Positions 5,001-35,433 of a stretch of DNA of 36,702 nucleotides are shown here, in pieces (position 1 is the stretch's first letter; each line of letters begins with the position of its first letter). A program made the translations under genes and the position numbers. This DNA is from a virus. Under the pieces are notes generated by a model. The model was not told the origin of the DNA. It saw nothing but the letters and a program-made list of their open reading frames with translations, and ran no database searches. The stretch is taken from positions 1 to 36,702 of the IMG/VR virus record IMGVR_UViG_3300045988_049113. One strand, written 5' to 3'.

Positions 5001-5951
5001 ATAGCTTTCGCCGCTGTCCGCAGACTGTTCTTCAGCCGGTGCTTCTATTGTCATAGACAGACCGCCGTTATACGTCACAGAAATATTTGCGGCAGGAATT
5101 TTCACGGTTTCTCCGCCGTAGGTTATGCTCACCATATCCCACGCATCTATCAGCATATTGCCAAGCCTTAACGGGATTTCACCCGTGCGGTATTTAAATC
5201 CGTTTAATGACTTCTGCACCGTGTTCAGCTGATTTTGAGTCATAAACAGGCAGTCGTATGTTATCGCAGTGCCTGTGCCGGCTGTAAAATCTCCGCACAC
5301 CACACGTCCGACTGTACTATCGTCGGTAGCAACTGTGGGTGTGTCATAGCAGTTTTCGGACAATTGCACCGTAGTATCAAACCACTTGAACGCTATCTTG
5401 CCGGTACGGTCACAAACGGCGAATTTGCCGTACAGCCCTGCGATATATCCGATTATTTCACGGCAGGTATAGCCCTCCGGCTTGTCCTTTATCGTTACCG
5501 CCGTAAGCCCCGAAGTATTAAAGGCAACGCCGCACTTTGTCGCTATCTCAGACAGCATTTTCAGCGTTGTGGACGGATACGACAGGCTTGAAAAATAGCC
5601 TTTTTCCGTCTTTGTCATGTTATCCTCAAGCGTTACCGACAACAGTTCTCCGCTTTTCTCGATTTTCTTTACCGTAAGCACTCCCTGCGGTGCGTATTCG
5701 CCGTTCACGCCAAAATACAACGTGCAAGCGCTTCCCTTTCTGACCGACGCAGGAAGTGCCGACAGCTCGACTTTTGCGTTTGCTATGACAGTTCCGCCCG
5801 GCACTATGCTCTCACTGCACGATCCGCCCGAATAGCTTACGCTGAACAGATCGTTCACCGTTACATTATTACCGAAATCCAGCTTGCAGCAGTAGACAGG
5901 CTCAGCACCATTAACGGCTGACAGAAAATCATCCGAAACATTTGTATACAA
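2079..5951 (-). CDS. Tail fibre / tail-associated host-recognition protein with C-terminal peptidase S74 intramolecular chaperone
   Basis: 1290 aa, immediately after the tape measure and Dit-position gene. It has a coiled-coil block of KADI(A/T/D)EL repeats. The C-terminus carries SDARMKNHI...YGFIAQDVLSAL...YEQFIPLMWNEIKRL, typical of S74 auto-cleaving chaperone domains. Confidence 0.8.
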   Translation of the reverse strand: MYTNVSDDFLSAVNGAEPVYCCKLDFGNNVTVNDLFSVSYSGGSCSESIVPGGTVIANAKVELSALPASVRKGSACTLYFGVNGEYAPQGVLTVKKIEKSGELLSVTLEDNMTKTEKGYFSSLSYPSTTLKMLSEIATKCGVAFNTSGLTAVTIKDKPEGYTCREIIGYIAGLYGKFAVCDRTGKIAFKWFDTTVQLSENCYDTPTVATDDSTVGRVVCGDFTAGTGTAITYDCLFMTQNQLNTVQKSLNGFKYRTGEIPLRLGNMLIDAWDMVSITYGGETVKIPAANISVTYNGGLSMTIEAPAEEQSADSGESYKSPAQKQAERITADIISVKQALLEKADIAELNAQIANLENVYAAKADITELSAQIATIDNLTAKKADVEQLYAKKADIDELVADTATLKSLKSNVANIDVLLSGKAGTGELTSIKLTVENAEIATALIKDLTAANFRSKTIETDDFTIKSSSGKLQIVGNTIQIKDVNNTVRVQIGEDGKSDYGIYVTDANGKIMFTSYDGLHEDGIKSGIIKNDMVADDAHISGSKLDISSVIDGINADNSTYLNTSKVVIDGTSQTINAKFTELTASIGSIGTRTSALESDLSGFRTTVSETYATKSAVDSIQIGGRNLLYDSTGNIKNGWSGNTIITVDGGISGNSLAISRTGYSGNARYFGTNKRHFLTDFEVGTSYTLSAWIKVRSDVELDASGYVMARFRSADDKKLYALSLTVSSQTEKDKWIYYEKTWTINDSAIAKLECVALALDKNGMIEACNIKLEKGTKATDWSPAPEDTTAEITSLSSKQSSLEQTVDGFKATVESTYATNDSVIQKVSVVEQKADKISWIVKSGTSASSMELTSEALQIVADHISLNADVKVNGSMVVDNSITAEKLSVISLSAISTNIGTVKAGTIQSTNYVANNIGMKLSLATGVWDSKYFKISSTGTITATGGTIGGFTISNDSLYNGLTSINHKEGTNETSGVNIDVLNGLAVYNSQFGTEINNGKIEFYSLGRELGYIAPTSTDFSNYGKTRIGIVATNQIGKAGLYGQIDLGYQDEFDSSAYQPTYSVCCDSRKSSNDGFNSTFHVRTRFSSGIDVSDIYFSYENKTICSIGIAGYYGVGGISPDVYKWLPVFNDYVAFKRGILFDSSNPSLIYHGANRLLACSSSKIVVGNSNLALSLIGSSLTSSSTISVSSDARMKNHIADLPSKSENLFDYLDGKSFFYNGDTSTAKNYGFIAQDVLSALQKCGLSTDDFAGFCDINGDGSQYALAYEQFIPLMWNEIKRLRKALSERS

Positions 5952-6334: not shown

Positions 6335-9300
6335 TTACCCCCGTTCTGTATGTGTTCTCCTTGTTCAGACGTACTATCAACCGGTAAAGCGTTTTACCGT
6401 CAACCTCACCCTTAGCGATAAGATTAAGACCTTTCAGAAACTCCAGTATCTCACGAAGCAGAAGTACGACTTCCGTCATATCTCCGCCTTCGCCGATGAT
6501 GTCCTTGAGCTTTGACAGAGGCGCAATTACCTCCGGGTCTGTTCCTGCATTACGGTTATCACCGACCATTGCAAGCGTAGGCGCATACGCAAGACCGCCC
6601 TTTGCAAGTTTAGGTATCAGCGGAGGATTTTCAGGCATTGAGAAATGCCAGTCCTGACCGAACAAATCGCCTATTGCGCCTGCCACACCGCCGATAGCGT
6701 CAACTATACCCTTAACTGCGTTGTAAATGCCTGTCCAGAGCATATTAATACCGTCGATTATCAGATTGATAACGCCTTTGATCACGCCCCAGATTGTGTT
6801 CCAGATACCGCTGAAAAAGTCGCATATTCCCTGCCAAGCCTTATTCCAGTCGCCTGAAAATACACCTGTTATAAAGTCTATCAGTCCGCCGAAGGTCTTA
6901 ATAATACCGCCGATTATATCGCCGATAGCGGTAAATACAGTGTCAAAAACGCCTTTGACCGCCGCCAGTACATTTTTTATCGTGGGTCCCAACGTTTTTA
7001 CGAACCAATCGACAAACGGCTTTAGAAAATTCCATACTGCTTTTACGCAATCCACGATTTTTGCGACAACGGCAACGACCTTTACATAGACAGGCTTTAT
7101 TGCTTTGTCCCACAGGGATTTTATAAGGTCACATACCCACTGTATAACGGGCTGTATCCACTCTTTATAGACCGTCAGCACTGTATCACCGACTGAAGTT
7201 ATAAGTGACTGAATAGCTTCCATCATCGGTTCGCCATACTGCGACCATAGCTTTGCCGAGGTTATCCACAAATCGCTCCATACGCCCTGCAAGGTTGTCA
7301 GTATCGGCATAACACCGGTTACAAAAACCTCGTCGAATATTGTCTTGACGGTTTCAAAGAGCGTCGTCATAACCTCTGCGGTCGCCGTCCACTGATCTGT
7401 CAGCAACGGTAACACGGTTGTTATCATTGTGTTCAGCGAAGGGAAAATAACGTTATCCCACAGCTGACCGAACACAAGATTAAACGTATCTCCAAGCCCT
7501 GAAGCTATCGTACCTATTGACTTAAACGCTGTCTGAAGCGCCGGAGTCAGATTATTTGTAAAATAGTTTTTGAACGGCTCGGCAAGAGTTGCCATATCAC
7601 TCCAGGCCTTGCTCATATTATCCTTGAAGCCCTCTATAACGGGTGCGAATTTTTTGCCTATCTCCGCAAATATCGGAGCAAAATTTGTGTCGAAATACTT
7701 TTTGACGTTTGCAAACTGCTTTTTCAGCAGAGCAAACCCCTTTTTAATCTGCTCACGGATCTTATTTCCGATACCCTCGGCTGTCTTATCGCCCTCGCTG
7801 TCAAGTGCAGAGAGATCAGAGGAGGAGCTGTCGCTCTCGTGCTTTGAAGCAACATTCATCTCATCAAAACTTGCAAGGAAACGGCTGTTTTCCTTAGCCT
7901 TTTTTCCGACAGCTTCGACCTTTTTTGCCGCTTCAAGCGACTTTTTATACGTTGTGCCGAACAGCCCAGAAATAAAGCTCGCTATAGCTTTTGTCGCTGT
8001 GGCAAGTCCGGATGCCAATGTATTAAGCGCAGGCATGATAGCGTTTACTATAGGCGTAAACGCAACCTGAAGATTGCCCTTTATCTGCTTTACACTGTTG
8101 CCGAACTCCTCGTTTGCACCGATAGCATCCGACATTACCGACTTTATGCCACGAAACGCCGCATAAAGCCCTGCCATAAGAAACGTAGATTTAAGTGCGG
8201 ATTTGACACTTTTACCAAGTCCGCCTATTGTCTTGCCGAATCCACCGGCAGAAGTTTTTGCTTTGCCGAGCGATTTTTCAGCAGAAGCACCTACTTTTTT
8301 GACCGACTTTTCAAGGTTATCAACAGGTTTTTCTGCTCTTTTGAAATGGCTTGCAAAAGAGGAAGCCAGTTTTTTCACAGGAGCAATGACCGAGTTATTT
8401 ACCGCCGTGCCTACCGTTTTCAACGTGTTTTTCACCTTTGAAACAGGCTGTATTATCTTGCTTGCCGCCTTATCGGCCGTTTCCAGCACCTGCTCAATCT
8501 TTTTACACCCCGAATCCAGTACAGCAGTAGTTTTTTCTACCGCACTCTGCACTTTTTCGTTTGATGCAGCAGCCTCTGTTACCGCTGATTTAACCTGCAG
8601 CATTTTGTCTATCAGCATCGCTATGACAGGTAACGATTGCAGATTTATGTTGTTTGTGCTTTCAGGTATCTTGTTTACCGCTTCGGCAGCCTGCCGTGCG
8701 GCTTCAGCCAGCTTTTTGGCTTCTGCATCCGCTTGCATTGCCTTATCTATCTTGGCTTTAGTAGCTTCGGACTGCTGCTGCAGTTTCAGCATACTTGTTT
8801 CAACGGCGTTTATTTTTTCTATTACGGCATTGCCCTTTTCGCCTGCCATGTCTTTATCAGACATTGCCGCCATTTCTCTGTTAAGCTGTTTCCACTTCTC
8901 CTGTGCAAGCTCTATTTTTTCGTTAGTCAGCTCAAGACTTTTGTTCAGACGGTCGATAGGTTCGGAAGGAATTTCAAAACTGCCGACATCAATTTCGGGG
9001 AGCTCCTCTTTTTCTTTGGACTTCTTCTTATCGCTTTTCGGCTGATAGTTGTTCACGAAATCCATAGCTTCTTTGCTATAACCGGGTCCGAACTCGTACT
9101 TGTTATTTATCGTTTTGCCAAGGCTTTCTGCTTCCTTTTCCGCTTCCTTTACAGGCTCAACAAGCGCCTTTTCCAGCGTTTCGGAAGCCTTTTCGGCACT
9201 TTCGGATATAGAGCTTTCAAGCGTCTTTCCTACCTCTTCGGCGGGCTTTTCGACCTTCTGCACAGCCTTTTCAACGCTCTGCGTCACGGTCTTTTCTACA

Positions 9301-12370: not shown

Positions 12371-13450
12371 TTAGTATGTTACGACTATAGCCTTTGCGTT
12401 GCCGGGAGCGGTATTGAATGTTATCACGCCCGATGACTTGTCATAGCTGTAGTCTGTTGTCGCTGTGCCGTCCACAGTTACGCCGATGAGCTTTTCGGGC
12501 TTGTCGGTCACCGTAAATGTCGTGGCTGAGCCGTTACCTGCGAATGTCTGCGTCAGAGCAGATACATTCATGATACAGCCGTCAACAAACAGGTGATCTA
12601 TCGCAAATGTACCGTTGTACTTGCGGTTCTGGTACAGATAGTTGTCTGCCGTTCTGCTGTCAGAGCCGGGAGCAAACAGATGTATATATGCGTACTTATC
12701 TCTTGACACCTGGCATTCGGGGTCAATGAGAATGTAGTTTATCTGCTTTGCGCCGACACCGGACTTACAGCCGTCCGTGAAATCGTACACGGTCTTGAAA
12801 CGAGCTGAGGGAACTGTAACGATATTGCCTATATCGTCAACGGAATGGATACGTCTGTCGATACCGCCGCCGCTCTTGATGTCGAGCGTTCTCTGAATAC
12901 CCTCTGCGTTCTTGAGTATCGTCTTATAGTCTGCGGTGACATAGAGTATCATTCTGTCGAGGGGTACGCCCTTATCTTCAAGCGTCTTGAGATTCTCGTC
13001 AAAATCCTTGAGGACGTTCTCGATCGTGAGCTTGTCGTGCTTTATTGTTGCACCCACTCTTACAGCCTCTGCATACAGCTTTGAGAATGTATAGCTGTCG
13101 TGTTCGGGGATTGCCTGCGTCCTGTCGAAACGGCTCTGAATGTTCGCCAGTGATACAACGGTATCGGTTTCGTCAAAGTCCATAGGATCTACTACGAACT
13201 CGATAGAACGGTCGTGATCGAGCGTCTTTGTTTCGTAGTTGTTCTCGTATGTACCCTGAGGAAAGCCGAGAGATGCTCTTGTGTGGTCCTTATAGCCGGA
13301 TACCGACAGCGTGGGTATCTTGATTGTTTTTCCGCCTCTGAGCTGAATATCGGAATTTGAGTGATAGAGAGCGTCGGCCTTTGATTCCTGACCGTAAAGC
13401 TCTCTGAGCTGATTGGTATACTGTTCAGCATAGTTGATTGTGTTTGACAT
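12371..13450 (-). CDS. Major capsid protein with C-terminal Ig-like extension
   Basis: 359 aa directly after the scaffold gene. The last roughly 60 aa (GNGSATTFTVTDKPEKLIGVTVDGTATTDYSYDKSSGVITF) look like a beta-sandwich or Ig-like decoration domain. Confidence 0.75.
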   Translation of the reverse strand: MSNTINYAEQYTNQLRELYGQESKADALYHSNSDIQLRGGKTIKIPTLSVSGYKDHTRASLGFPQGTYENNYETKTLDHDRSIEFVVDPMDFDETDTVVSLANIQSRFDRTQAIPEHDSYTFSKLYAEAVRVGATIKHDKLTIENVLKDFDENLKTLEDKGVPLDRMILYVTADYKTILKNAEGIQRTLDIKSGGGIDRRIHSVDDIGNIVTVPSARFKTVYDFTDGCKSGVGAKQINYILIDPECQVSRDKYAYIHLFAPGSDSRTADNYLYQNRKYNGTFAIDHLFVDGCIMNVSALTQTFAGNGSATTFTVTDKPEKLIGVTVDGTATTDYSYDKSSGVITFNTAPGNAKAIVVTY

Positions 13451-14648: not shown

Positions 14649-14787
14649 ATGAGTTCATTTTTTCTTCCCAGTCTTTTCGGCTTTCTTCGTCCCAGTCTTC
14701 ATCAACAGTTTCTTGGGCTTTTTCCATATCATCTAAAACTTTTTCGATTAACTCATCAGAAATTATTACTTTAGTCTTGCCTTTCAT
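14647..14787 (-). CDS. Small acidic protein (46 aa), not in the ORF track
   Basis: The ATG at 14787 overlaps the TGA of the upstream gene (ATGA coupling). The translation is MKGKTKVIISDELIEKVLDDMEKAQETVDEDWDEESRKDWEEKMNS. A hairpin follows. Confidence 0.5.
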   Translation of the reverse strand: MKGKTKVIISDELIEKVLDDMEKAQETVDEDWDEESRKDWEEKMNS

Positions 14788-16919
14788 ATTATCACCTCTA
14801 ACACTATTTTATTGTTGCGGATTTTTAAAATTCGATATTTCAAATTCTTATCGAATAAAAACTCTCTCTGATTCGGGTATTTGCTCAATAATTCAATATA
14901 CGCACCCTTGCTTCCTTTTTTAGCTATTATTACGATGTTGTAATCACCTTTAAGCGTTCTCGATGAAACAACCGATGTGCTGATAAATTGCTTAGGCTCA
15001 TATATGTCGCCTATTTTCATTCCTTCCACAGGATTGTGTTTAACAGATCGGTAACAGATAATGTCGTGCTTTAACTCAAACTTCGCTATCGCACCCGATA
15101 TAACATCGGAATAATATTTCAAAGTGTCATCTTCGGAAATATCCCCACGAAGCATTGAATTAAGTCTTGCATAGAACTTATCGTCTTTGGGATCTCCGCT
15201 GTTCTTCGTGTACTTCTTGATTGCTCTGATTTCTTCGGGGGACAGACGGTTAATCCATTCATTTGAATCCTCACGCAGTACAGGAACAACAGTATCTGCC
15301 GACAACGGTTCGAAATCTGTTTCCTCTTCTATTATATCACTTTCATCCGAATTGTCAACAGTATCATCTGTAAAATTCTGTACGCTTTCTTCGCTGTCTG
15401 CCGTTGCTTCGACAGGCTGTTTTACAGTTTCCTGTACGTTTTCTGTTGTTTCGGCAGTTTCAACAGCCTTATCGGCTTCATCAGTCATAGCCGCAGTCGG
15501 CGTATCGTCTGTTTCTTCGTTGCTCTGAACGGTCTTTACAGGCTCAGGCTGTACAAAATTCATTGTGTTTTCGTTATTTTCCGGCTCAGAAACGTTATTA
15601 TCCAACTTGGAAATGTTATTTTCCGGCTTAGAAACATAAGGCTCTTTATTTGTCGGAACAGGATTTTTGCTTTCGGTATCGGTAGCTTTAACAGGCGCTT
15701 CTTCCGTTCTCGGAGCTGCCTGCTTCGGCTCACCCTTACCGCTGTAGATCTTCTCCCTCGAATAATCCCTGCGGAGAACATCGTCATGCTCTTTGATAAA
15801 TTCTCTGAGCTTGCCTTGTTCCTCTCGGAGCTTACGCTTATACTCCTTGACCTTCTTCTCGTCCTGCGTGCCCTCAACCTTGCGTTTGAGCGCTCTTATC
15901 TTGCGCTCCATAGCCCGTTGCTTTTCTTCAAGCTCTCGCTGTTCCCGTATCTTCTCGGCAGGAATCGGCTGAGGTATCTTTGTAAGCCCCTCTATGTACT
16001 GCCCCATAGTATGACGGCAGTTAGGGTGGAACAGCCCGCCTCGGATTGCCACAGACAACAGCATAAACCACTTGTCACAGTAGTTTGACTTGCCGAAGTC
16101 GCCGCTTCTCGCACCGTTCCATATCGTGAATACATCATCAATGTAAACCTTGCCCTGATACGGCTCGCAGGTTTCTGAGCAGCCTCCGTACTGCGATATA
16201 AGCACGGTATCATAGCCAAGCTCCGCAAAGCGTTTAGCCGCACCCTGCAATGTTGCCCTTGTGGACGTTGTGCGCAGTGCCATACGCACATAATCGGCAA
16301 TATTAACTCGCCTGCCGTCAGCGTATACAATGCAGTTTATGCCATTGTCGAGAAAGCCCCTTGTTGCAAGGTCGATTGCTTCATTAAGCGTAATTGAGCC
16401 TGTGCCCATCATAAGCTGTACCTTGTTCAGCGTTGTGCGGTAAACATCGTCCATATTACGCACAGCGGCGGTAAGGGCGGTCTTTTCAAGCGTTGTTACG
16501 TCTTCCATCAGCTTATCCATCTTCGGCTTGTTAACACCGAAAAAGTGATCATCCGGTATAGCTGTCGGCGCTTCGGGCGGCTGAGGCTGTGCCGGAACAT
16601 CGGGAACATTGACGCCGCTTTCCGAAACATCAATGACCGACTGCTCCGCTGTATGCTCTCCCTCGTGAAACTGATCCGTCATAAGCTGTCGGGTTTCATC
16701 GTCAATAACATCTACATATTCGTCCGCTATCTGAGCGTTCTCCTTGCGGAAATTGTCAATGTTATTGAGCTTTTCAGCCTGCCACGCTGACCATTCAAAG
16801 CCTTCTTTTTCTTCTTCGGCTTTGTGCCGTGAAAGATTGCGTTTCAGCGAAGCAATGAGCCTTAGCTCTATCTCTTCAAATATCTTTGCAATATCTCTGA
16901 AACTAAGCAAGCTCATCAC
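14784..16919 (-). CDS. Minor head protein (SPP1 gp7 / Mu F-like) fused to a C-terminal ADP-ribosyltransferase domain
   Basis: The N-terminal and central parts carry the Mu-F signature (GGCSETCEPYQGKVY...FHPNCRH). A low-complexity acidic linker follows. The last roughly 160 aa carry an R-S-E ART triad: CYRSV, FISTSV and NQREFLF (the Q-x-E motif). Confidence 0.8.
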   Translation of the reverse strand: MMSLLSFRDIAKIFEEIELRLIASLKRNLSRHKAEEEKEGFEWSAWQAEKLNNIDNFRKENAQIADEYVDVIDDETRQLMTDQFHEGEHTAEQSVIDVSESGVNVPDVPAQPQPPEAPTAIPDDHFFGVNKPKMDKLMEDVTTLEKTALTAAVRNMDDVYRTTLNKVQLMMGTGSITLNEAIDLATRGFLDNGINCIVYADGRRVNIADYVRMALRTTSTRATLQGAAKRFAELGYDTVLISQYGGCSETCEPYQGKVYIDDVFTIWNGARSGDFGKSNYCDKWFMLLSVAIRGGLFHPNCRHTMGQYIEGLTKIPQPIPAEKIREQRELEEKQRAMERKIRALKRKVEGTQDEKKVKEYKRKLREEQGKLREFIKEHDDVLRRDYSREKIYSGKGEPKQAAPRTEEAPVKATDTESKNPVPTNKEPYVSKPENNISKLDNNVSEPENNENTMNFVQPEPVKTVQSNEETDDTPTAAMTDEADKAVETAETTENVQETVKQPVEATADSEESVQNFTDDTVDNSDESDIIEEETDFEPLSADTVVPVLREDSNEWINRLSPEEIRAIKKYTKNSGDPKDDKFYARLNSMLRGDISEDDTLKYYSDVISGAIAKFELKHDIICYRSVKHNPVEGMKIGDIYEPKQFISTSVVSSRTLKGDYNIVIIAKKGSKGAYIELLSKYPNQREFLFDKNLKYRILKIRNNKIVLEVII

Positions 16920-21885: not shown

Positions 21886-22290
21886 TTAATCATTTAAATT
21901 TCTCCTTTCAAATCCTTCCTCGCCGGTCATCAGCTCGATACACCTCAGTGCAAGCATCAGCTTGACATCGTGATTTCTTGTGCTGTTGATCTCACATCTC
22001 AGCTCGTCCGACCTTCGTATATTCTCCTGGTATCCGACCTCTGCCTCGTGATTTTTCCGTGTTTTGTCTGCGTCCTTGCGATAATCACAAAGATATGCGT
22101 CCTTACGCTCTTTGCAAAGTCCCTTCGGAAGCTGACCACTGCGGTAGATACTGCCGAGCTGTGACAGCTTATCGAAGTATTTATACTCGGCAGGCGGAAA
22201 GTCGGTATAATCAAGCGTGTTTTCGTATGCCATATGCTCCAGCTTTTCAAATGTTGCCGGATCATTGAAATTTATCTTCTTCATAATCAT
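21886..22290 (-). CDS. Hypothetical protein
   Basis: A 134-aa ORF. The start abuts the repeat element at 22290-22412, and no obvious SD is seen. Confidence 0.45.
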   Translation of the reverse strand: MIMKKINFNDPATFEKLEHMAYENTLDYTDFPPAEYKYFDKLSQLGSIYRSGQLPKGLCKERKDAYLCDYRKDADKTRKNHEAEVGYQENIRRSDELRCEINSTRNHDVKLMLALRCIELMTGEEGFERRNLND

Positions 22291-22412
22291 TCGGTGTAAG
22301 GTGGTGAAGGGTTTTGCCCGTTTTCCAACACCTTTTATATATATTTATTTTTTTCATTTTCCGTATGAAAGGTTAGAAAAACCCTTAAACCCTTCACCAC
22401 CCTTCACCCTCC
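22290..22412 (-). repeat. Long-stem element, copy X1 (sense on the minus strand)
   Basis: Bases 22290-22388 are the perfect reverse complement of 34674-34772 (99 bp). Arms 22293-22314 and 22387-22408 pair at 20 of 22 positions around a 64-nt AT-rich conserved centre. Confidence 0.85.
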
Positions 22413-32041: not shown

Positions 32042-32281
32042 TTAAAGTAACCTTCCTTCGTACCACGCTATAAATCGCAATGGATGAATCTCATACTTGT
32101 ATTTACCGCCTGCACAATGCCGTGCAATACCAAAATGATAATCACCCGAGCGAAGCATATCATCAACCGTCTGTGTTGATACGTCAAGCAAATCGGCTAC
32201 TATCTCCTTTGGCACTTTCTTATGCCGGAGAATAGCAGGCTTGTACTTTTCTTCCCACTCTCTTTCAATGTTGGCTTCCAT
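32042..32281 (-). CDS. Small HTH DNA-binding protein (early regulator or Xis-like)
   Basis: The ATG at 32281 is preceded by AGGAGGTGAGAGC. PKEIVADLLDVSTQTVDDMLRSG looks like an HTH. The longer track ORF (start 32359) is unlikely. Confidence 0.5.
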   Translation of the reverse strand: MEANIEREWEEKYKPAILRHKKVPKEIVADLLDVSTQTVDDMLRSGDYHFGIARHCAGGKYKYEIHPLRFIAWYEGRLL

Positions 32282-32833: not shown

Positions 32834-33025
32834 TCATATTTCACTGAGTAAGGAATCAACTGAACAGTCTAATATTACAGCTAATTTCTTCAGCTTTATG
32901 ATATCGGGTTTTCTTGCTCCTGTTTCCCACATTCCAATAGTAGACTTACTGACATTCAGTAAATTAGCCAAATTTTCTTGAGTAAGCCCCTTTTTTAACC
33001 TGTATTTTTTTATCGTAGTTGACAT
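32834..33025 (-). CDS. Cro-like XRE-family HTH repressor
   Basis: 63 aa with LKKGLTQENLANLLNVSKSTIGMWETGARKP. It is the first gene of the leftward early operon and is divergent from the CI-like gene. Confidence 0.85.
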   Translation of the reverse strand: MSTTIKKYRLKKGLTQENLANLLNVSKSTIGMWETGARKPDIIKLKKLAVILDCSVDSLLSEI

Positions 33026-33134: not shown

Positions 33135-33163
33135 TTGACATTTTTCACAAAACGTGATACTAT
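33135..33163 (+). promoter_or_regulatory. Repressor maintenance promoter (PRM-like) with overlapping operator
   Basis: TTGACA (33135-33140), a 17-nt spacer, then TGaTACTAT (TACTAT at 33158-33163). The candidate operator TCACAAAACGTGA (33144-33156) lies in the spacer. Related CAC-N5-GTG sites are at 33096-33108 and 33113-33125. Confidence 0.7.
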
Positions 33164-33183: not shown

Positions 33184-34149
33184 ATGATTTCTACAAAAAT
33201 TAAAGACCTAAGAATTAAAAATGATATTACTCAAGAGCAATTGTCAAAAGAACTTAGTGTTGCAAAGAGTACAATAGGTATGTGGGAAAATGGTCGCAGA
33301 GAGCCGGACATTGATATGATTAAGAAAATTGCAAAATATTTCAAATGTCCTGTTTCGTCATTACTCGACGATAAAATTACCTTAAACTTCGTTCCTCACG
33401 AAATTGATGAAGATGATGCTTTGATAAAATGTCCTATATGCGATTATGAAATAACGCATTTTGAGGGAACTAAAACCATTTGTTTTGACAACCAAAAAAG
33501 CGATGGTATAGCACTTGAATTTTCTTGTGAAGACGGTCATAGGTTTTATCTTATAATAGAAAGTTTCAAAGGCAATTCTTATGCTGTTTTTGCTGATGAA
33601 ACTTGTTCAACATTTAAACCATTAAGTCATGTTTTTGAAAACACACCAATTTCATTAAGTAATTTATGGAATATTACCAATAATAAAAAATATCAATCTT
33701 TAGACGCTTTCGGCAAAAAAGCAGTTGATGGACTTCTTGACATTGAATACGATAGAGTATCAAAGTCTAAAAAACCCACTTTTATGTTTTCTCATTTTAG
33801 TGTTAATAAAGTATCTGCTGGTTGCGGCTATTCACTTGACGATCCTGATCAATGGAAATCTTTAAGAGTAATTGATAATGAAGTTGCACGAAGAGCAGAT
33901 TTTGCAGTTGAAATAGATGGTCATAGCATGGAACCGACCTATTCAGACGGAGATATTGTTTATATCGTGAAAACCAATGAAATTCCAAAAGGAAAAATAG
34001 GTTTATTTATTCAGAACGGAAAAGGTTACATAAAAGAAGCAGGGGATAACTGTTTAGTATCCCACAACAAAGAATATAAGAACATATATCCGTCAGACGG
34101 TGATATCGAATGCGTTGGCAGAGTTATAGGGGTAGCTGAGCCAGTATAG
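33184..34149 (+). CDS. CI-like repressor: XRE HTH + Cys/His-containing middle domain + S24 (LexA-like) autopeptidase
   Basis: The ATG at 33184 follows AAGGAG. The N-terminal HTH is ITQEQLSKELSVAKSTIGMWENGRREP. An Ala-Gly cleavage-site context (KVSAGCG) is present, with the catalytic Ser in GHSMEP and a downstream Lys (NGKGYIKE). At 321 aa it is long for this class. Confidence 0.85.
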   Translation: MISTKIKDLRIKNDITQEQLSKELSVAKSTIGMWENGRREPDIDMIKKIAKYFKCPVSSLLDDKITLNFVPHEIDEDDALIKCPICDYEITHFEGTKTICFDNQKSDGIALEFSCEDGHRFYLIIESFKGNSYAVFADETCSTFKPLSHVFENTPISLSNLWNITNNKKYQSLDAFGKKAVDGLLDIEYDRVSKSKKPTFMFSHFSVNKVSAGCGYSLDDPDQWKSLRVIDNEVARRADFAVEIDGHSMEPTYSDGDIVYIVKTNEIPKGKIGLFIQNGKGYIKEAGDNCLVSHNKEYKNIYPSDGDIECVGRVIGVAEPV

Positions 34150-34196
34150 TAATCTAAAAATTACCGCTAAGGTCGTGAAACGCTACCTTAGCGATG

Positions 34197-34295
34197 GTCG
34201 TCCTCTACATGAGGGCGTGGATTGAAATAGGAGAGGGGAAAATTCCCCAGTCCGAATATTTCGGTCGCCCTCTTCACGAGGGCGTGGATTGAAAA
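34197..34295 (+). CRISPR. Mini-CRISPR array: two 32-bp type I-C-like repeats flanking one 35-bp spacer, with no cas genes in the window
   Basis: R1 (34197-34228) is GTCGTCCTCTACATGAGGGCGTGGATTGAAAT. R2 (34264-34295) is GTCGCCCTCTTCACGAGGGCGTGGATTGAAAA. They match at 28 of 32 positions. Each has a 7-bp stem (CGYCCTC/GAGGGCG) and the GTGGATTGAAA tail typical of I-C repeats. The spacer (34229-34263) is AGGAGAGGGGAAAATTCCCCAGTCCGAATATTTCG. Confidence 0.8.
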
Positions 34296-34321
34296 AACGA
34301 AAGTAAAATTGCGTTGGTTGA

Positions 34322-34463
34322 TTTTGTGTCCCCGGGGACACAAAAAAACTGTACGGAATTTGTCGCCTCGGGGAGACAAATCGGAGTAAATGTTGAATCG
34401 ATTCAACAAATTGGGTAGACAAATAGCCCAGTCATCTGAAAAATTTGTGCAGACGTCTGCACA
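34322..34463. repeat. Cluster of four TGT...ACA palindromic hairpins (H1-H4)
   Basis: H1 (34322-34345) is TTTTGTGTCCCCGGGGACACAAAA. H2 (34358-34381) is ATTTGTCGCCTCGGGGAGACAAAT and is imperfect. H3 (34391-34408) is TGTTGAATCGATTCAACA. H4 (34446-34463) is TGTGCAGACGTCTGCACA. Confidence 0.85.
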
Positions 34464-34470
34464 TTTATAC

Positions 34471-34598
34471 GAGGGTGTTTCGGGTTGTTGCGGGTTTTCG
34501 GGTTTTTCTAACCTTTCATACGGAAAAAGAAAAAAATAAATATATATAAAAGGTATTGGAAAACGGCTCAAACCCGCAACACCCGCAACACCCACAAC
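34471..34598 (+). repeat. Long-stem element, copy X2 (divergent arms, conserved centre)
   Basis: Arms 34473-34497 and 34570-34593 form 23 bp with one bulge and one mismatch. The 64-nt centre (34503-34566) matches X3 at 62 of 64 positions. The arm sequence differs from X1 and X3 but remains self-complementary. Confidence 0.8.
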
Positions 34599-34625
34599 AA
34601 GATATTATTAAATACCAGAAGATTT

Positions 34626-34643
34626 TGTCCAATCGATTGGACA
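34626..34643. repeat. Palindromic hairpin H5 (TGTCCAATCGATTGGACA)
   Basis: A perfect 18-bp palindrome. Like H4, it is followed by TTT(A/G)TACGAGGGTG and an X element. Confidence 0.85.
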
Positions 34644-34650
34644 TTTGTAC

Positions 34651-34772
34651 GAGGGTGTATAGTGGTGTAGGGCTTAAGGGTTTTTCTAACCTTTCATACG
34701 GAAAATGAAAAAAATAAATATATATAAAAGGTGTTGGAAAACGGGCAAAACCCTTCACCACCTTACACCGAA
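34651..34772 (+). repeat. Long-stem element, copy X3
   Basis: Bases 34674-34772 are the perfect reverse complement of 22290-22388. The left arm is diverged, with 18 of 22 positions pairing. Confidence 0.85.
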
Positions 34773-34793
34773 CGACTATAAAATACCCGAAAG

Positions 34794-34817
34794 TTTTGTT
34801 CAGTCAACTGAACAAAA
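34794..34817. repeat. Palindromic hairpin H6 (TTTTGTTCAGTCAACTGAACAAAA)
   Basis: An 11-bp stem with a 2-nt centre. It shares the TTTGT...ACAAA termini of H1-H5. Confidence 0.8.
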
Positions 34818-34844
34818 AAAACTAAAATATTTTCCCTAAACCTC

Positions 34845-34873
34845 TTGACATACTGCTTGCAGTATGATATAAT
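34845..34873 (+). promoter_or_regulatory. Consensus promoter for the small-peptide/RHH/int operon
   Basis: TTGACA (34845-34850), a 17-nt spacer, then TGaTATAAT (TATAAT at 34868-34873). The spacer contains the palindrome TACTGCTTGCAGTA, a candidate operator. Confidence 0.75.
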
Positions 34874-34895
34874 ATATACAGGAGGTGAGGAAAAG

Positions 34896-35006
34896 ATGCC
34901 AAAGAGAAAAAAGAAAAAGGCTACCGCCATTGAGATAGCCGACATCGTAATCAAAGCAGTTGTTGCAGTCGCCGCTTTGATAACAGCAATCAGTCAATGG
35001 AAATAG
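34896..35006 (+). CDS. 36-aa membrane peptide (basic N-terminus plus one TM helix), not in the ORF track
   Basis: AGGAGGTGAGG lies 6 nt upstream of the ATG. The translation is MPKRKKKKATAIEIADIVIKAVVAVAALITAISQWK. Confidence 0.55.
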   Translation: MPKRKKKKATAIEIADIVIKAVVAVAALITAISQWK

Positions 35007-35081
35007 CCTGAACCTGAGGGGCGAAAGCTCCTCCCCCTTGTGGGGTACTTATATTATACCACAGTGAAAGGAGTTTTACAA

Positions 35082-35255
35082 GTGAAAAAAAGTGATATAT
35101 GGTTTCTCGTTCTCGCAGTATTTTTTATGCTTGATGTTGCTTCTGCGTGGAATATATGGATTAACATTTGCACTATAATCTGCGCAATTGTCGTACTGGC
35201 TGAATGTACCGTAAGATTGATAGGAGTGATAAGAAATGCCCGAAACAAAGCGTAA
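35082..35255 (+). CDS. Small two-TM membrane protein (57 aa)
   Basis: The GTG at 35082 lies 8 nt after AAAGGAG. The product is (M)KKSDIWFLVLAVFFMLDVASAWNIWINICTIICAIVVLAECTVRLIGVIRNARNKA. Confidence 0.5.
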   Translation: MKKSDIWFLVLAVFFMLDVASAWNIWINICTIICAIVVLAECTVRLIGVIRNARNKA

Positions 35256-35433
35256 GACCCACACATCAACGCAGGTGAAACAGAGATATAACGATAAAGT
35301 GTACACCGCCATGACGTTCCGTGTACCCAAAGAGCTTGCCGCAGAGTTCAAGCAGATCTGCACCGATAACAATATTTCACAGGCACAGATCATCAAGGAC
35401 GCTATGGCGGAGCTTGTGGAGAAGTATAAATAA
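35236..35433 (+). CDS. Ribbon-helix-helix (CopG/Arc-like) DNA-binding protein upstream of int (regulator or excision factor candidate)
   Basis: 65 aa. KVYTAMTFRVPKELAAEFKQICTDNNISQAQIIKDAMAELV fits a beta-strand-helix-helix layout. AGGAG lies upstream of the ATG. Confidence 0.55.
   Translation: MPETKRKTHTSTQVKQRYNDKVYTAMTFRVPKELAAEFKQICTDNNISQAQIIKDAMAELVEKYK

What the first reader, a model, noticed from the sequence alone, without database searches (positions are those of the whole stretch)
34150..34300. Orphan mini-CRISPR array (type I-C-like, 2 repeats / 1 spacer) carried by the prophage directly downstream of its CI-like repressor
**Seen in sequence**
- Two 32-bp repeats (34197-34228 and 34264-34295) are identical at 28 of 32 positions and separated by a 35-bp unique spacer.
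- Each repeat has a 7-bp stem (CGYCCTC/GAGGGCG) with a 5-nt loop and ends in GTGGATTGAAA(T/A).
- This is the architecture and tail I recall for type I-C repeats (GTCGC-stem-loop-GCGTGGATTGAAAY).
- The one stem substitution in R1 (C to T) keeps pairing as G-U.
- No cas gene is present anywhere in the 36.7-kb element.
- The array is on the same strand as the repressor gene, 48 nt after its stop codon.
- Only a U-tract-less hairpin (34166-34192) lies between them.

**Inference**
- The array is probably co-transcribed with the repressor in lysogens.
- One role would be to borrow a host type I-C Cas complex to target a competing phage or plasmid, a form of CRISPR-based superinfection exclusion.
- The other would be to act as a repeat decoy, that is, an RNA anti-CRISPR or solitary-repeat mimic against host I-C immunity.
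- Both phenomena are described for viral mini-arrays and solitary repeat units in general.
- Placement in the immunity operon of a tRNA-integrating prophage would give a clean test case.
Basis: partly seen in the sequence, partly recalled or inferred. Interest (0 to 1): 0.85.

Follow-up and report, generated by a model that had tools for sequence, protein, structure and literature searches.

The report
Prophage mini-CRISPR array against rival phages
A very common human-gut prophage carries, just after its repressor gene, a one-spacer type I-C CRISPR array with no cas genes; its spacer exactly matches a regulatory gene of rival phages, so it probably borrows the host's Cas proteins to keep those rivals out, which is a known viral trick.

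Summary
R1 (34197-34228), a 35-nt spacer (34229-34263) and R2 (34264-34295) lie 47 nt after the stop codon of an HTH+S24 repressor, in a tRNA-Gln-integrated siphovirus-like prophage in which I found no cas gene.

- **Repeat type.** The repeat is type I-C. The same repeat, apart from its last base, forms a 109-repeat array in a Ruminococcus MAG. Repeats that differ only in the loop sit beside cas5c-cas8c-cas7-cas4-cas1c operons.
- **Host link.** Arrays with this exact repeat hold perfect spacers against this prophage, flanked by TTC PAMs.
- **Target.** The spacer matches 35/35 a Rha-family gene in five other viral contigs. One of them is a sibling phage with the same integrase and att site but a different immunity cassette. 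That sibling has a solitary repeat where this phage has the array.
- **PAM.** The flank is TTT, not TTC. TTT is a documented second-best I-C PAM.
- **Variants.** Relatives carry 1 to about 11 spacers, and this spacer is always first.

Best reading: a leaderless viral mini-array, co-transcribed with the repressor, that gives one host-type crRNA for CRISPR-based exclusion of rivals. Expression, processing and the presence of Cas in lysogens are untested. It is a new member of a known kind, of moderate interest.

The parts
33135..33163 (+). Promoter-like site (TTGACA-17-TACTAT with TG) in front of the repressor. It is the presumed source of the transcript that carries the array.
   Evidence: Consensus scan. 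The divergent partner promoter is at 33086-33059 (-), in front of the Cro-like HTH gene (32834-33025). Function is inferred, not shown.
33184..34149 (+). CI/LexA-like repressor (HTH_3 + Peptidase_S24), 321 aa from the ATG at 33184.
   Evidence: Pfam hits. The exact 321-aa protein is indexed in 1614 blocks of the public assembly collection, and each of the 8 places shown is a prophage of this type.
34165..34193 (+). Hairpin without a U-tract that abuts R1. It is a leader-like junction element and does not resemble host I-C leaders.
   Evidence: Fold. It is conserved with an inverted loop in the sibling L011/L042 and only partly in L026/L027. Host leaders in L021/L022 are unrelated.
34197..34228 (+). 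Repeat R1. It differs from the host consensus at positions 5, 11 and 14, all within its first 21 nt. The stem is kept through a G-U pair.
34229..34263 (+). 35-nt spacer. It matches the Rha gene of other phages 35/35.
34264..34295 (+). Repeat R2. It is identical to the 109-repeat Ruminococcus MAG array repeat except for the last base (A instead of T).
34218..34284 (+). Predicted mature crRNA, 67 nt: an 11-nt 5' handle UGGAUUGAAAU, the 35-nt spacer, and a 21-nt 3' hairpin. Both repeat-derived parts are identical to the host consensus.
   Evidence: Inference from the published Cas5c cleavage rule (Nam 2012 and Garside 2012, as cited in PMC10651486), applied to the sequence and the consensus. Not measured.

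Best explanation
The feature is a leaderless, phage-borne type I-C mini-CRISPR array. I propose the following chain of events.

1. In lysogens the array is transcribed as the 3' tail of the repressor mRNA (inferred).
2. Host Cas5c cuts at the base of each repeat hairpin. This releases one 67-nt crRNA whose handle and hairpin are identical to those of host crRNAs (inferred).
3. Host Cascade loaded with this crRNA recognises the TTT-flanked protospacer in the Rha gene of incoming phages and recruits Cas3 to destroy them (inferred).

The targets include a sibling phage that uses the same tRNA-Gln attachment site but has a different repressor, so the resident repressor cannot exclude it. The array therefore extends the prophage's immunity, in a sequence-programmed way, to heteroimmune competitors. 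This is CRISPR-mediated superinfection exclusion.

**Shown here:** the anatomy; the type I-C identity of the repeat; the exact protospacers and which gene and phages carry them; targeting of this phage by arrays with the same repeat.
For: **The repeat is type I-C**
- R2 is 31/32 identical to the repeat of a 109-copy array on a Ruminococcus MAG contig.
- Repeats that differ only in the loop lie next to Cas1c, Cas4, Cas7c, Cas8c and Cas5c in an Oscillospiraceae MAG, and next to Cas4 and Cas1c in a Ruminococcus MAG. A further Ruminococcus-type I-C locus shows the same arrangement.

**The phage meets I-C hosts**
- Spacers in arrays with the exact repeat match the window perfectly at 8478-8511, 32060-32094, 12570-12602 and 5811-5843, each with a TTC PAM.

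**The spacer has real targets**
- Five IMG/VR contigs carry a 35/35 protospacer with no flanking repeats, inside a Phage_pRha gene.
- Two more contigs carry it with 1 and 3 mismatches.
- No contig holds both the array and the protospacer.

**One target is a sibling phage (L011/L042)**
- It shares the integrase/att region at 98.9% and the early genes at 93%.
- Its immunity cassette is different: an HTH repressor only 34% identical in the HTH domain, an M78 ImmA-like protease, a Cro-like protein and Rha.

**TTT is a working I-C PAM**
- TTT is the second-best functional I-C PAM in Legionella and Xanthomonas (PMC5602111; 10.1101/2021.10.18.464778).
- It also flanks another perfect natural protospacer of this repeat family.

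**The crRNA-forming parts are intact**
- All four deviations of R1 and R2 from the consensus lie in the halves that would not end up in the mature crRNA.

**The spacer is retained**
- All 8 host-integrated copies from different samples carry the identical array.
- Variants with 2, 4 and about 11 spacers keep this spacer first.

**Transcription**
- No terminator-like or promoter-like site lies between the repressor promoter and R1.

**Precedent**
- The pattern matches published leaderless (pro)phage mini-arrays that target neighbouring genes of close relatives (PMC6858448; PMC11656645).
Against: - There are no expression or processing data.
- No lysogen genome was shown to hold an I-C cas operon. 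The exact repeat was found only on contigs without cas genes, and five Cas1c-based look-ups found I-C loci with other repeat variants.
- The PAM is TTT, not the preferred TTC that flanks 6 of 7 perfect host-array protospacers.
- R1 is degenerate at three positions, and no host-type leader is present.
- Invariance of the array says little, because the whole prophage is 98-99% conserved and the copies were found by exact repressor or exact spacer.
- The other phage-borne spacers I tested have no exact IMG/VR target.
Confidence: 0.68

Rival explanations
1. RNA anti-CRISPR (Racr-like decoy). In this reading the main job of the repeat transcripts is to soak up Cas5c and Cas7 and blunt host I-C immunity. 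That would protect the phage, which host arrays do target. The spacer would be incidental.
For: - Host-type arrays carry perfect spacers against this phage, so there is pressure to evade I-C.
- A prophage-encoded I-C Racr has been validated experimentally (PMC10651486).
- The sibling L011/L042 carries only a solitary repeat at the same position, with its stem kept through two G-U pairs.
- Any extra crRNA competes for Cas proteins.
Against: - The window unit is not a solitary repeat. It has two repeats at canonical spacing, and its full-length 35-nt spacer matches rival phages 35/35.
- The parts that would form a normal crRNA are exactly consensus.
- This spacer is kept first in every array variant.
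- No acr-like neighbour was recognised.
Confidence: 0.1
2. Non-functional passenger. In this reading the array is a fragment of a host or phage array, captured by recombination at a module boundary, that merely hitch-hikes with a successful prophage.
For: - There is no leader, and R1 is degenerate.
- The array sits exactly at the border of the exchangeable immunity cassette.
- Deletion variants and a truncated repeat exist (L121, L027).
- Conservation is uninformative.
- Cas in lysogens was not shown.
Against: - A chance relic would not be expected to carry a perfect match to the alternative immunity cassette of its own sibling phage while lacking that target itself.
- All four repeat mutations avoid the crRNA-forming halves. 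This is about 1 in 16 by chance, so only weak support.
- The spacer is retained across all length variants.
Confidence: 0.17
3. Regulatory crRNA-like RNA (Cracr/crlRNA mimic). In this reading the RNA guides Cascade to a host cas or toxin promoter through partial pairing and silences it without cleavage.
For: Viral Cracr arrays aimed at I-C loci have been reported (10.1101/2024.10.29.618823). Degenerate first repeats are common in such units.
Against: - The spacer pairs over its full 35 nt with a phage gene, whereas crlRNAs pair only partially.
- Seven I-C cas loci and 60 kb of host flank held no site with at least 22/35 matches, and no PAM-flanked seed match of at least 11/12.
Confidence: 0.03

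Closest known systems
Virus-borne mini-CRISPR arrays used in interviral conflict (Faure et al. 2019 survey; Medvedeva et al. 2019 on SPV1/SPV2, PMC6858448; review PMC11656645)
   Same: - It has 1-2 spacers and no cas genes.
- Its repeats match those of host arrays.
- The spacer hits a neighbouring gene of a closely related virus and not the carrier itself.
- As described for bacterial (pro)phage mini-arrays, it has no leader.
   Different: - It is bacterial, type I-C, and sits in a human-gut Oscillospiraceae/Ruminococcus prophage.
- It is placed as the 3' tail of the repressor operon, at the edge of the exchangeable immunity cassette.
- The protospacer PAM is the alternative TTT.
- Four of the five exact targets are unrelated phages that share the Rha allele.
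- Reciprocal targeting by the sibling was not seen.
- There is no experimental support here.
RacrIC1 and other solitary-repeat RNA anti-CRISPRs (Camara-Wilpert et al. 2023, PMC10651486)
   Same: It is a prophage-encoded I-C repeat mimic with no cas genes, expressed as part of an operon. The sibling phage L011/L042 has exactly such a solitary repeat at the homologous site.
   Different: The window element has two repeats and a bona fide targeting spacer. No acr gene was recognised beside it.
Viral Cracr / crlRNA arrays (10.1101/2024.10.29.618823)
   Same: It is a small cas-less repeat-spacer unit on a phage with a degenerate first repeat.
   Different: The spacer is fully complementary to a phage gene rather than partially complementary to a host cas or toxin promoter. 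No such host match was found.
Prophage-borne full-size CRISPR arrays
   Same: Relatives of this phage carry about 11 spacers at the same site (L010). Other phage contigs carry 10-50 repeats of the same type next to phage genes (L024, L030, L032).
   Different: The window copy is reduced to a single spacer.

Membership tests
Type I-C CRISPR repeat/array | A 32-nt repeat of the form GTCGC, a 7-bp G+C stem, a 5-nt loop, then GTGGATTGAAAY | tested here: met
   R1 keeps the stem through a G-U pair.
Type I-C CRISPR repeat/array | The same repeat family is found in arrays adjacent to cas3-cas5c-cas8c-cas7c-cas4-cas1c-cas2 | tested here: met
   L022 and L021 repeats are 28/32 and 29/32 identical to R2, with the internal differences confined to the loop, and lie beside NCBIfam-confirmed I-C Cas proteins. 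L153 shows the same. Caveat: the exact repeat (L020, L030) was seen only on contigs without cas genes.
Type I-C CRISPR repeat/array | Spacer length in the I-C range (33-37 nt) | tested here: met
   The spacer is 35 nt. Spacers in arrays of the same repeat are 33-36 nt. The Legionella range is 33-37 nt (PMC5602111).
Type I-C CRISPR repeat/array | A 5'-TTC PAM next to the protospacer | tested here: not met
   All seven exact or near-exact protospacers are flanked by TTT. TTT is a documented alternative functional I-C PAM. Six of seven perfect protospacers of full-size arrays with this repeat have TTC and one has TTT.
Type I-C CRISPR repeat/array | Cas5c processing that gives an 11-nt 5' handle and a 21-nt 3' hairpin | not testable with these tools
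   This needs small-RNA data. The sequence allows it.
Viral mini-CRISPR array (interviral conflict) | 1-2 spacers between repeats, on a virus, with no cas genes | tested here: met
   The prophage is bounded by a 52-bp att repeat in tRNA-Gln.
Viral mini-CRISPR array (interviral conflict) | Repeats match those of the host's CRISPR arrays | tested here: met
   R2 is 31/32 identical to the L020 Ruminococcus MAG array repeat. That array holds spacers against this phage. The lysogen's own genome was not examined.
Viral mini-CRISPR array (interviral conflict) | The spacer targets a related virus and not the carrier | tested here: met
   There is a 35/35 match in the sibling L011/L042 and in four other phage contigs. 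The window holds no second copy of the spacer and no Rha gene.
Viral mini-CRISPR array (interviral conflict) | The array confers exclusion of the targeted virus | not testable with these tools
   An experiment is needed.
Racr (solitary-repeat RNA anti-CRISPR) | A solitary repeat unit without a usable spacer | tested here: not met
   The window has two repeats and a matching 35-nt spacer. The sibling's locus does meet this feature.
Racr (solitary-repeat RNA anti-CRISPR) | Co-location with acr genes | tested here: inconclusive
   The neighbours are the repressor and small ORFs with no informative family. No acr-specific library was available.
Cracr / viral crlRNA | A spacer-like segment partially complementary to a host cas or toxin promoter | tested here: not met
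   No partial match was found in seven I-C loci or in the host flanks. Complementarity to a phage gene is complete. The true host's cas promoter was not available.

The most novel reading that the evidence does not exclude
The repressor cassette and the mini-array may form one linked 'immunity supergene'. The crRNA would specifically kill the alternative immunity allele (ImmR/ImmA/Rha) carried by sibling phages that compete for the same tRNA-Gln site. The solitary repeat that the targeted sibling keeps at the same spot would be its RNA anti-CRISPR counter-measure. Together this would be an attack and counter-attack pair built from one CRISPR repeat locus. The swapped-out variable segment of Rha that lies exactly over the protospacer would be a second escape route.
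Probability: 0.2. Interest if true: 0.65.

Novelty: new member of a known kind. Interest (0 to 1): 0.4.

Why it matters
Virus-borne mini-arrays have been tested experimentally only in archaeal viruses. For bacterial prophages they are known mainly from surveys.

This example is unusually complete on paper:
- The prophage is extremely common in the human gut.
- The spacer has identified, perfectly matching targets.
- One target is a heteroimmune sibling that uses the same attachment site.
- Host-type arrays with the same repeat target the carrier phage.
- Natural variants range from a solitary repeat to about 11 spacers.

It would be a good system for three tests: whether prophages use host I-C Cas to extend their immunity beyond repressor specificity, whether the alternative TTT PAM suffices, and whether solitary repeats counter such attacks. 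It does not reveal a new kind of mechanism.

Tried and rejected
- **Rfam.** No CRISPR-DR family reached threshold. The only hit was an 18-bit CRISPR-DR9 match against a gathering score of 45.
- **INPHARED phages.** BLAST of the region gave only short, uninformative hits. BLAST of the longer L010 array found other faecal phage records with repeat-like matches, and a 31/33 match of one spacer in MT835532.1 with an unclear PAM.
- **Other phage-borne spacers.** Exact IMG/VR searches for the L026 spacer, spacer X of L121/L122 and L010 spacer 6 found no targets. Mismatched targets cannot be excluded.
- **cas operon beside the exact repeat.** Cas1c homologues and five contig look-ups gave I-C loci with other stem or loop variants only.
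- **Host species.** It could not be named. The flanking CdaA belongs to an unnamed cluster, and the nearest named hits are Ruminococcaceae/Oscillospiraceae MAGs.
- **Conservation test.** Comparing the array with its flanks is uninformative. The copies were ascertained by exact repressor or exact spacer, and all variation came from one recombinant copy that diverges just after R2.
- **Protein-binding duplication.** I rejected the idea that the two repeats are a local duplication bound by a protein, because they are identical to I-C CRISPR repeats found in long arrays.
- **Self-targeting.** Rejected: the window has no second copy of the spacer.
- **Regulatory crlRNA.** Rejected for lack of any partial host match.

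Full report
**1. The observation**

The sequence shows R1 at 34197-34228 (GTCGTCCTCTACATGAGGGCGTGGATTGAAAT). A 35-nt spacer follows at 34229-34263 (AGGAGAGGGGAAAATTCCCCAGTCCGAATATTTCG), then R2 at 34264-34295 (GTCGCCCTCTTCACGAGGGCGTGGATTGAAAA). The two repeats agree at 28 of 32 positions. A degenerate repeat pattern finds only these two copies in the window and none in 100 shuffles.

Folded as RNA, both repeats form the expected G+C hairpin, and a further hairpin (about 34165-34193) abuts R1 (z = -8.5). The upstream ORF is an HTH_3 + Peptidase_S24 repressor that ends at 34149, 47 nt before R1. It sits in a classic divergent arrangement with a Cro-like HTH gene and two strong promoter-like sites. 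No + strand terminator-like or promoter-like site lies between the repressor promoter and R1.

The window is a complete siphovirus-like prophage. It encodes terminase, portal, minor capsid, tape measure, holin, an M23 lysin, a replication module and an integrase. It is bounded by a 52-bp direct repeat that is the 3' end of a tRNA-Gln gene. No Cas family was hit.

**2. The repeat is type I-C, and cells with such systems meet this phage**

A scan of one genome per species found the pattern in 12 loci.
- A 7.8-kb contig binned to a human (Hadza) Ruminococcus MAG is almost entirely an array of about 109 repeats. Its repeat, GTCGCCCTCTTCACGAGGGCGTGGATTGAAAT, is identical to R2 except for the last base.
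- Arrays whose repeats differ only in the loop lie next to Cas1c, Cas4, Cas7c, Cas8c and Cas5c in an Oscillospiraceae MAG, and next to Cas4 and Cas1c in another Ruminococcus MAG. All of these reach NCBIfam cut-offs.
- A further Ruminococcus-type I-C locus has the same stem and handle.

Spacers from the arrays with the exact repeat match the window perfectly at 8478-8511, 32060-32094, 12570-12602 and 5811-5843. Each protospacer is preceded by TTC in the orientation set by the repeat. So the repeat orientation, the PAM side and the exposure of this phage to I-C immunity are all supported by data. I could not find a cas operon beside the exact repeat, and I could not inspect a lysogen's whole genome.

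**3. What the spacer targets**

An exact search of IMG/VR found 11 contigs.
- Six contigs carry the same repeat-flanked array.
- Five contigs carry the 35-mer with no repeats, inside a 179-181-aa gene of the Phage_pRha family (E about 1e-23), in the sense orientation.
- A family-wide scan added one contig with 1 mismatch and one with 3 PAM-distal mismatches.
- All seven protospacers are flanked by TTT.

TTT is the second most efficient interference PAM and the second most used acquisition PAM in Legionella I-C. It is also accepted by Xanthomonas I-C. In addition, it flanks another perfect natural protospacer of this repeat family. The window itself has no Rha gene and no second copy of the spacer, and no contig holds both the array and the protospacer.

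**4. One target is a sibling phage**

Contig IMGVR_UViG_3300045988_132711 (L011/L042) shares the integrase/att region with the window at 98.9% and the early genes at about 93%. Its immunity cassette has been replaced: it has a 107-aa HTH repressor (34% identical to the window's HTH domain), an M78 ImmA-like protease, a Cro-like protein and the Rha gene with the 35/35 protospacer. The resident CI would therefore not be expected to repress it (inference), yet both phages compete for the same attB.

At the exact place of the mini-array, with the same downstream sequence, the sibling has a single repeat, GTCGCCCTTTGTATGAGGGTGTGGATTGAAAA. Its stem is kept through two G-U pairs. The other four exact-target contigs show no similarity to the window in the 6-13 kb sampled. 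They share only the Rha allele.

**5. Variation among carriers**

The exact repressor protein is indexed in 1614 blocks of the assembly collection. All 8 long host-integrated copies I examined, from different human-gut samples, carry the identical R1-spacer-R2. Other carriers vary in length:
- L010 has the same repressor, R1 and spacer, followed by about 10 further spacers and a degenerate terminal repeat.
- Two metagenome contigs have 2 and 4 spacers, again with this spacer first.
- L026, with the same integrase, has a different one-spacer array placed directly before the integrase gene.
- L027 keeps 32/35 of the spacer without R1.

The locus is therefore dynamic, but this spacer is retained.

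All four deviations of R1 and R2 from the consensus fall in the halves that would be discarded. By the Cas5c cleavage rule, the single mature crRNA (34218-34284) would have a consensus 11-nt handle and a consensus 21-nt hairpin. The chance probability of that pattern is about 1 in 16, so it is only suggestive. A direct conservation test was uninformative because of how the copies were ascertained.

**6. Mechanism and rivals**

The best reading (confidence about 0.68) has three steps:
- The array is read through from the repressor promoter in lysogens.
- Host Cas5c processes the transcript.
- Host Cascade-Cas3 uses the crRNA to destroy incoming phages that carry this Rha allele, including heteroimmune siblings.

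All functional steps are inferred.

The rivals are:
- **Racr-type decoy (about 0.1).** It is plausible as a side effect and is the likelier reading for the sibling's solitary repeat. It does not explain a perfect full-length spacer.
- **Inert relic at a recombination boundary (about 0.17).** It is not excluded without expression data.
- **Cracr-type regulator (about 0.03).** I found no partial match in seven I-C loci or in the host flanks.

**7. Comparison with what is known, and novelty**

The pattern has these elements: a leaderless mini-array, host-type repeats, and a spacer against a neighbouring gene of a close relative but not of the carrier. This is what the 2019 survey of (pro)phage mini-arrays reported, and what was shown experimentally for archaeal SPV1/SPV2.

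This is therefore a new member of a known kind. Its useful particulars are the type I-C system, a highly prevalent gut prophage, the position in the immunity operon at the cassette boundary, the TTT PAM, and a sibling with a solitary repeat. Interest is moderate (0.4).

Noticed in passing
window 34320-34830 (+); also L027 upstream of its array: There are six palindromes of the form TTGT-N12-ACAA. The N12 differs between copies but is itself palindromic, so these look like hairpins with covarying stems. Examples are 34325-34344, 34391-34408, 34445-34462 and 34626-34643. Some are joined by a conserved linker, AAATCGGAGTAAA. In L027 the same kind of hairpin series lies upstream of the array rather than downstream. 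Function unknown.
   Followed up: partly
window 34473-34595 (+), 34651-34772 (+), 22280-22411 (inverted): A ~120-nt element occurs three times. It has a conserved AT-rich core (…TTTTTCTAACCTTTCATACGGAAAA…TAAATATATATAAAAGG…) flanked by inverted arms built from short iterated G-rich and C-rich motifs. Two arm types are mutually compensatory, but chimeric copies with non-matching arms also exist (L011, L112). The third copy lies just downstream of the primase/D5-like gene. IMG/VR has it only in this phage group: 33 loci and 22 distinct versions. It may be origin-like. Rfam gives only sub-threshold miRNA-like hits.
   Followed up: partly
L011 1521-1552 (= L042), homologous to window 34264-34295: The targeted sibling phage carries a solitary I-C repeat in place of the mini-array. 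Both stem substitutions are C-to-T changes that keep pairing as G-U. It is a candidate RNA anti-CRISPR, or a relic of spacer loss that avoided self-targeting.
   Followed up: partly
Rha genes in L033-L050, residues ~40-66: Rha proteins that are otherwise 83-86% identical carry one of several unrelated alleles of a ~27-residue segment that exactly covers the protospacer. This could be an escape route from CRISPR targeting by cassette replacement, or simply a naturally variable region.
   Followed up: partly
L030 (IMGVR_UViG_3300045988_181263), L028, L024, L032: Viral contigs carry 10-50 repeats of the same I-C type directly next to phage morphogenesis genes. The L030 array holds three perfect, TTC-flanked spacers against the window phage. 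These are either phage-borne full-size arrays used against this prophage, or a host array next to an integrated phage. The contig ends prevent a decision.
   Followed up: partly
L027 617-651 (- strand): One relative keeps 32/35 of the spacer without R1. The three changes, all on the 5' arm, turn it into a perfect 12-bp-stem palindrome (CGGACTGGGGAA/TTCCCCAGTCCG). This is the signature of a quasi-palindrome templated correction. On the opposite strand it is followed by TTTTGT, which is terminator-like.
   Followed up: no
window 34174-34186 versus L011 1554-1566: The loop of the hairpin that abuts R1 (TCGTGAAACGCTA) is present as its reverse complement (TAGCATTTCACGA, one mismatch) in the sibling. 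This is an inversion between the stem arms.
   Followed up: no
window 14784-16919 (-): The Phage_min_cap2 head protein carries a C-terminal ADP-ribosyltransferase exoenzyme domain (E = 1.3e-15), so it may be a virion-delivered toxin or effector domain.
   Followed up: no
window 34845-35433 (+): A perfect sigma-70-type promoter (TTGACA-17-TATAAT with TG) lies just upstream of three small ORFs: a 36-aa ORF, a 71-aa membrane-like ORF, and a 65-aa ORF with a weak RepB-RCR_reg/RHH hit. These precede the integrase and may form a lysogeny-expressed moron cassette.
   Followed up: no
L114 downstream of R2 (window-equivalent 34301-34456): In one integrated copy, sequence divergence begins 6 nt after R2 (9 substitutions in 177 nt), while the repressor, leader and array are identical. 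This marks a recombination breakpoint at the end of the array.
   Followed up: no
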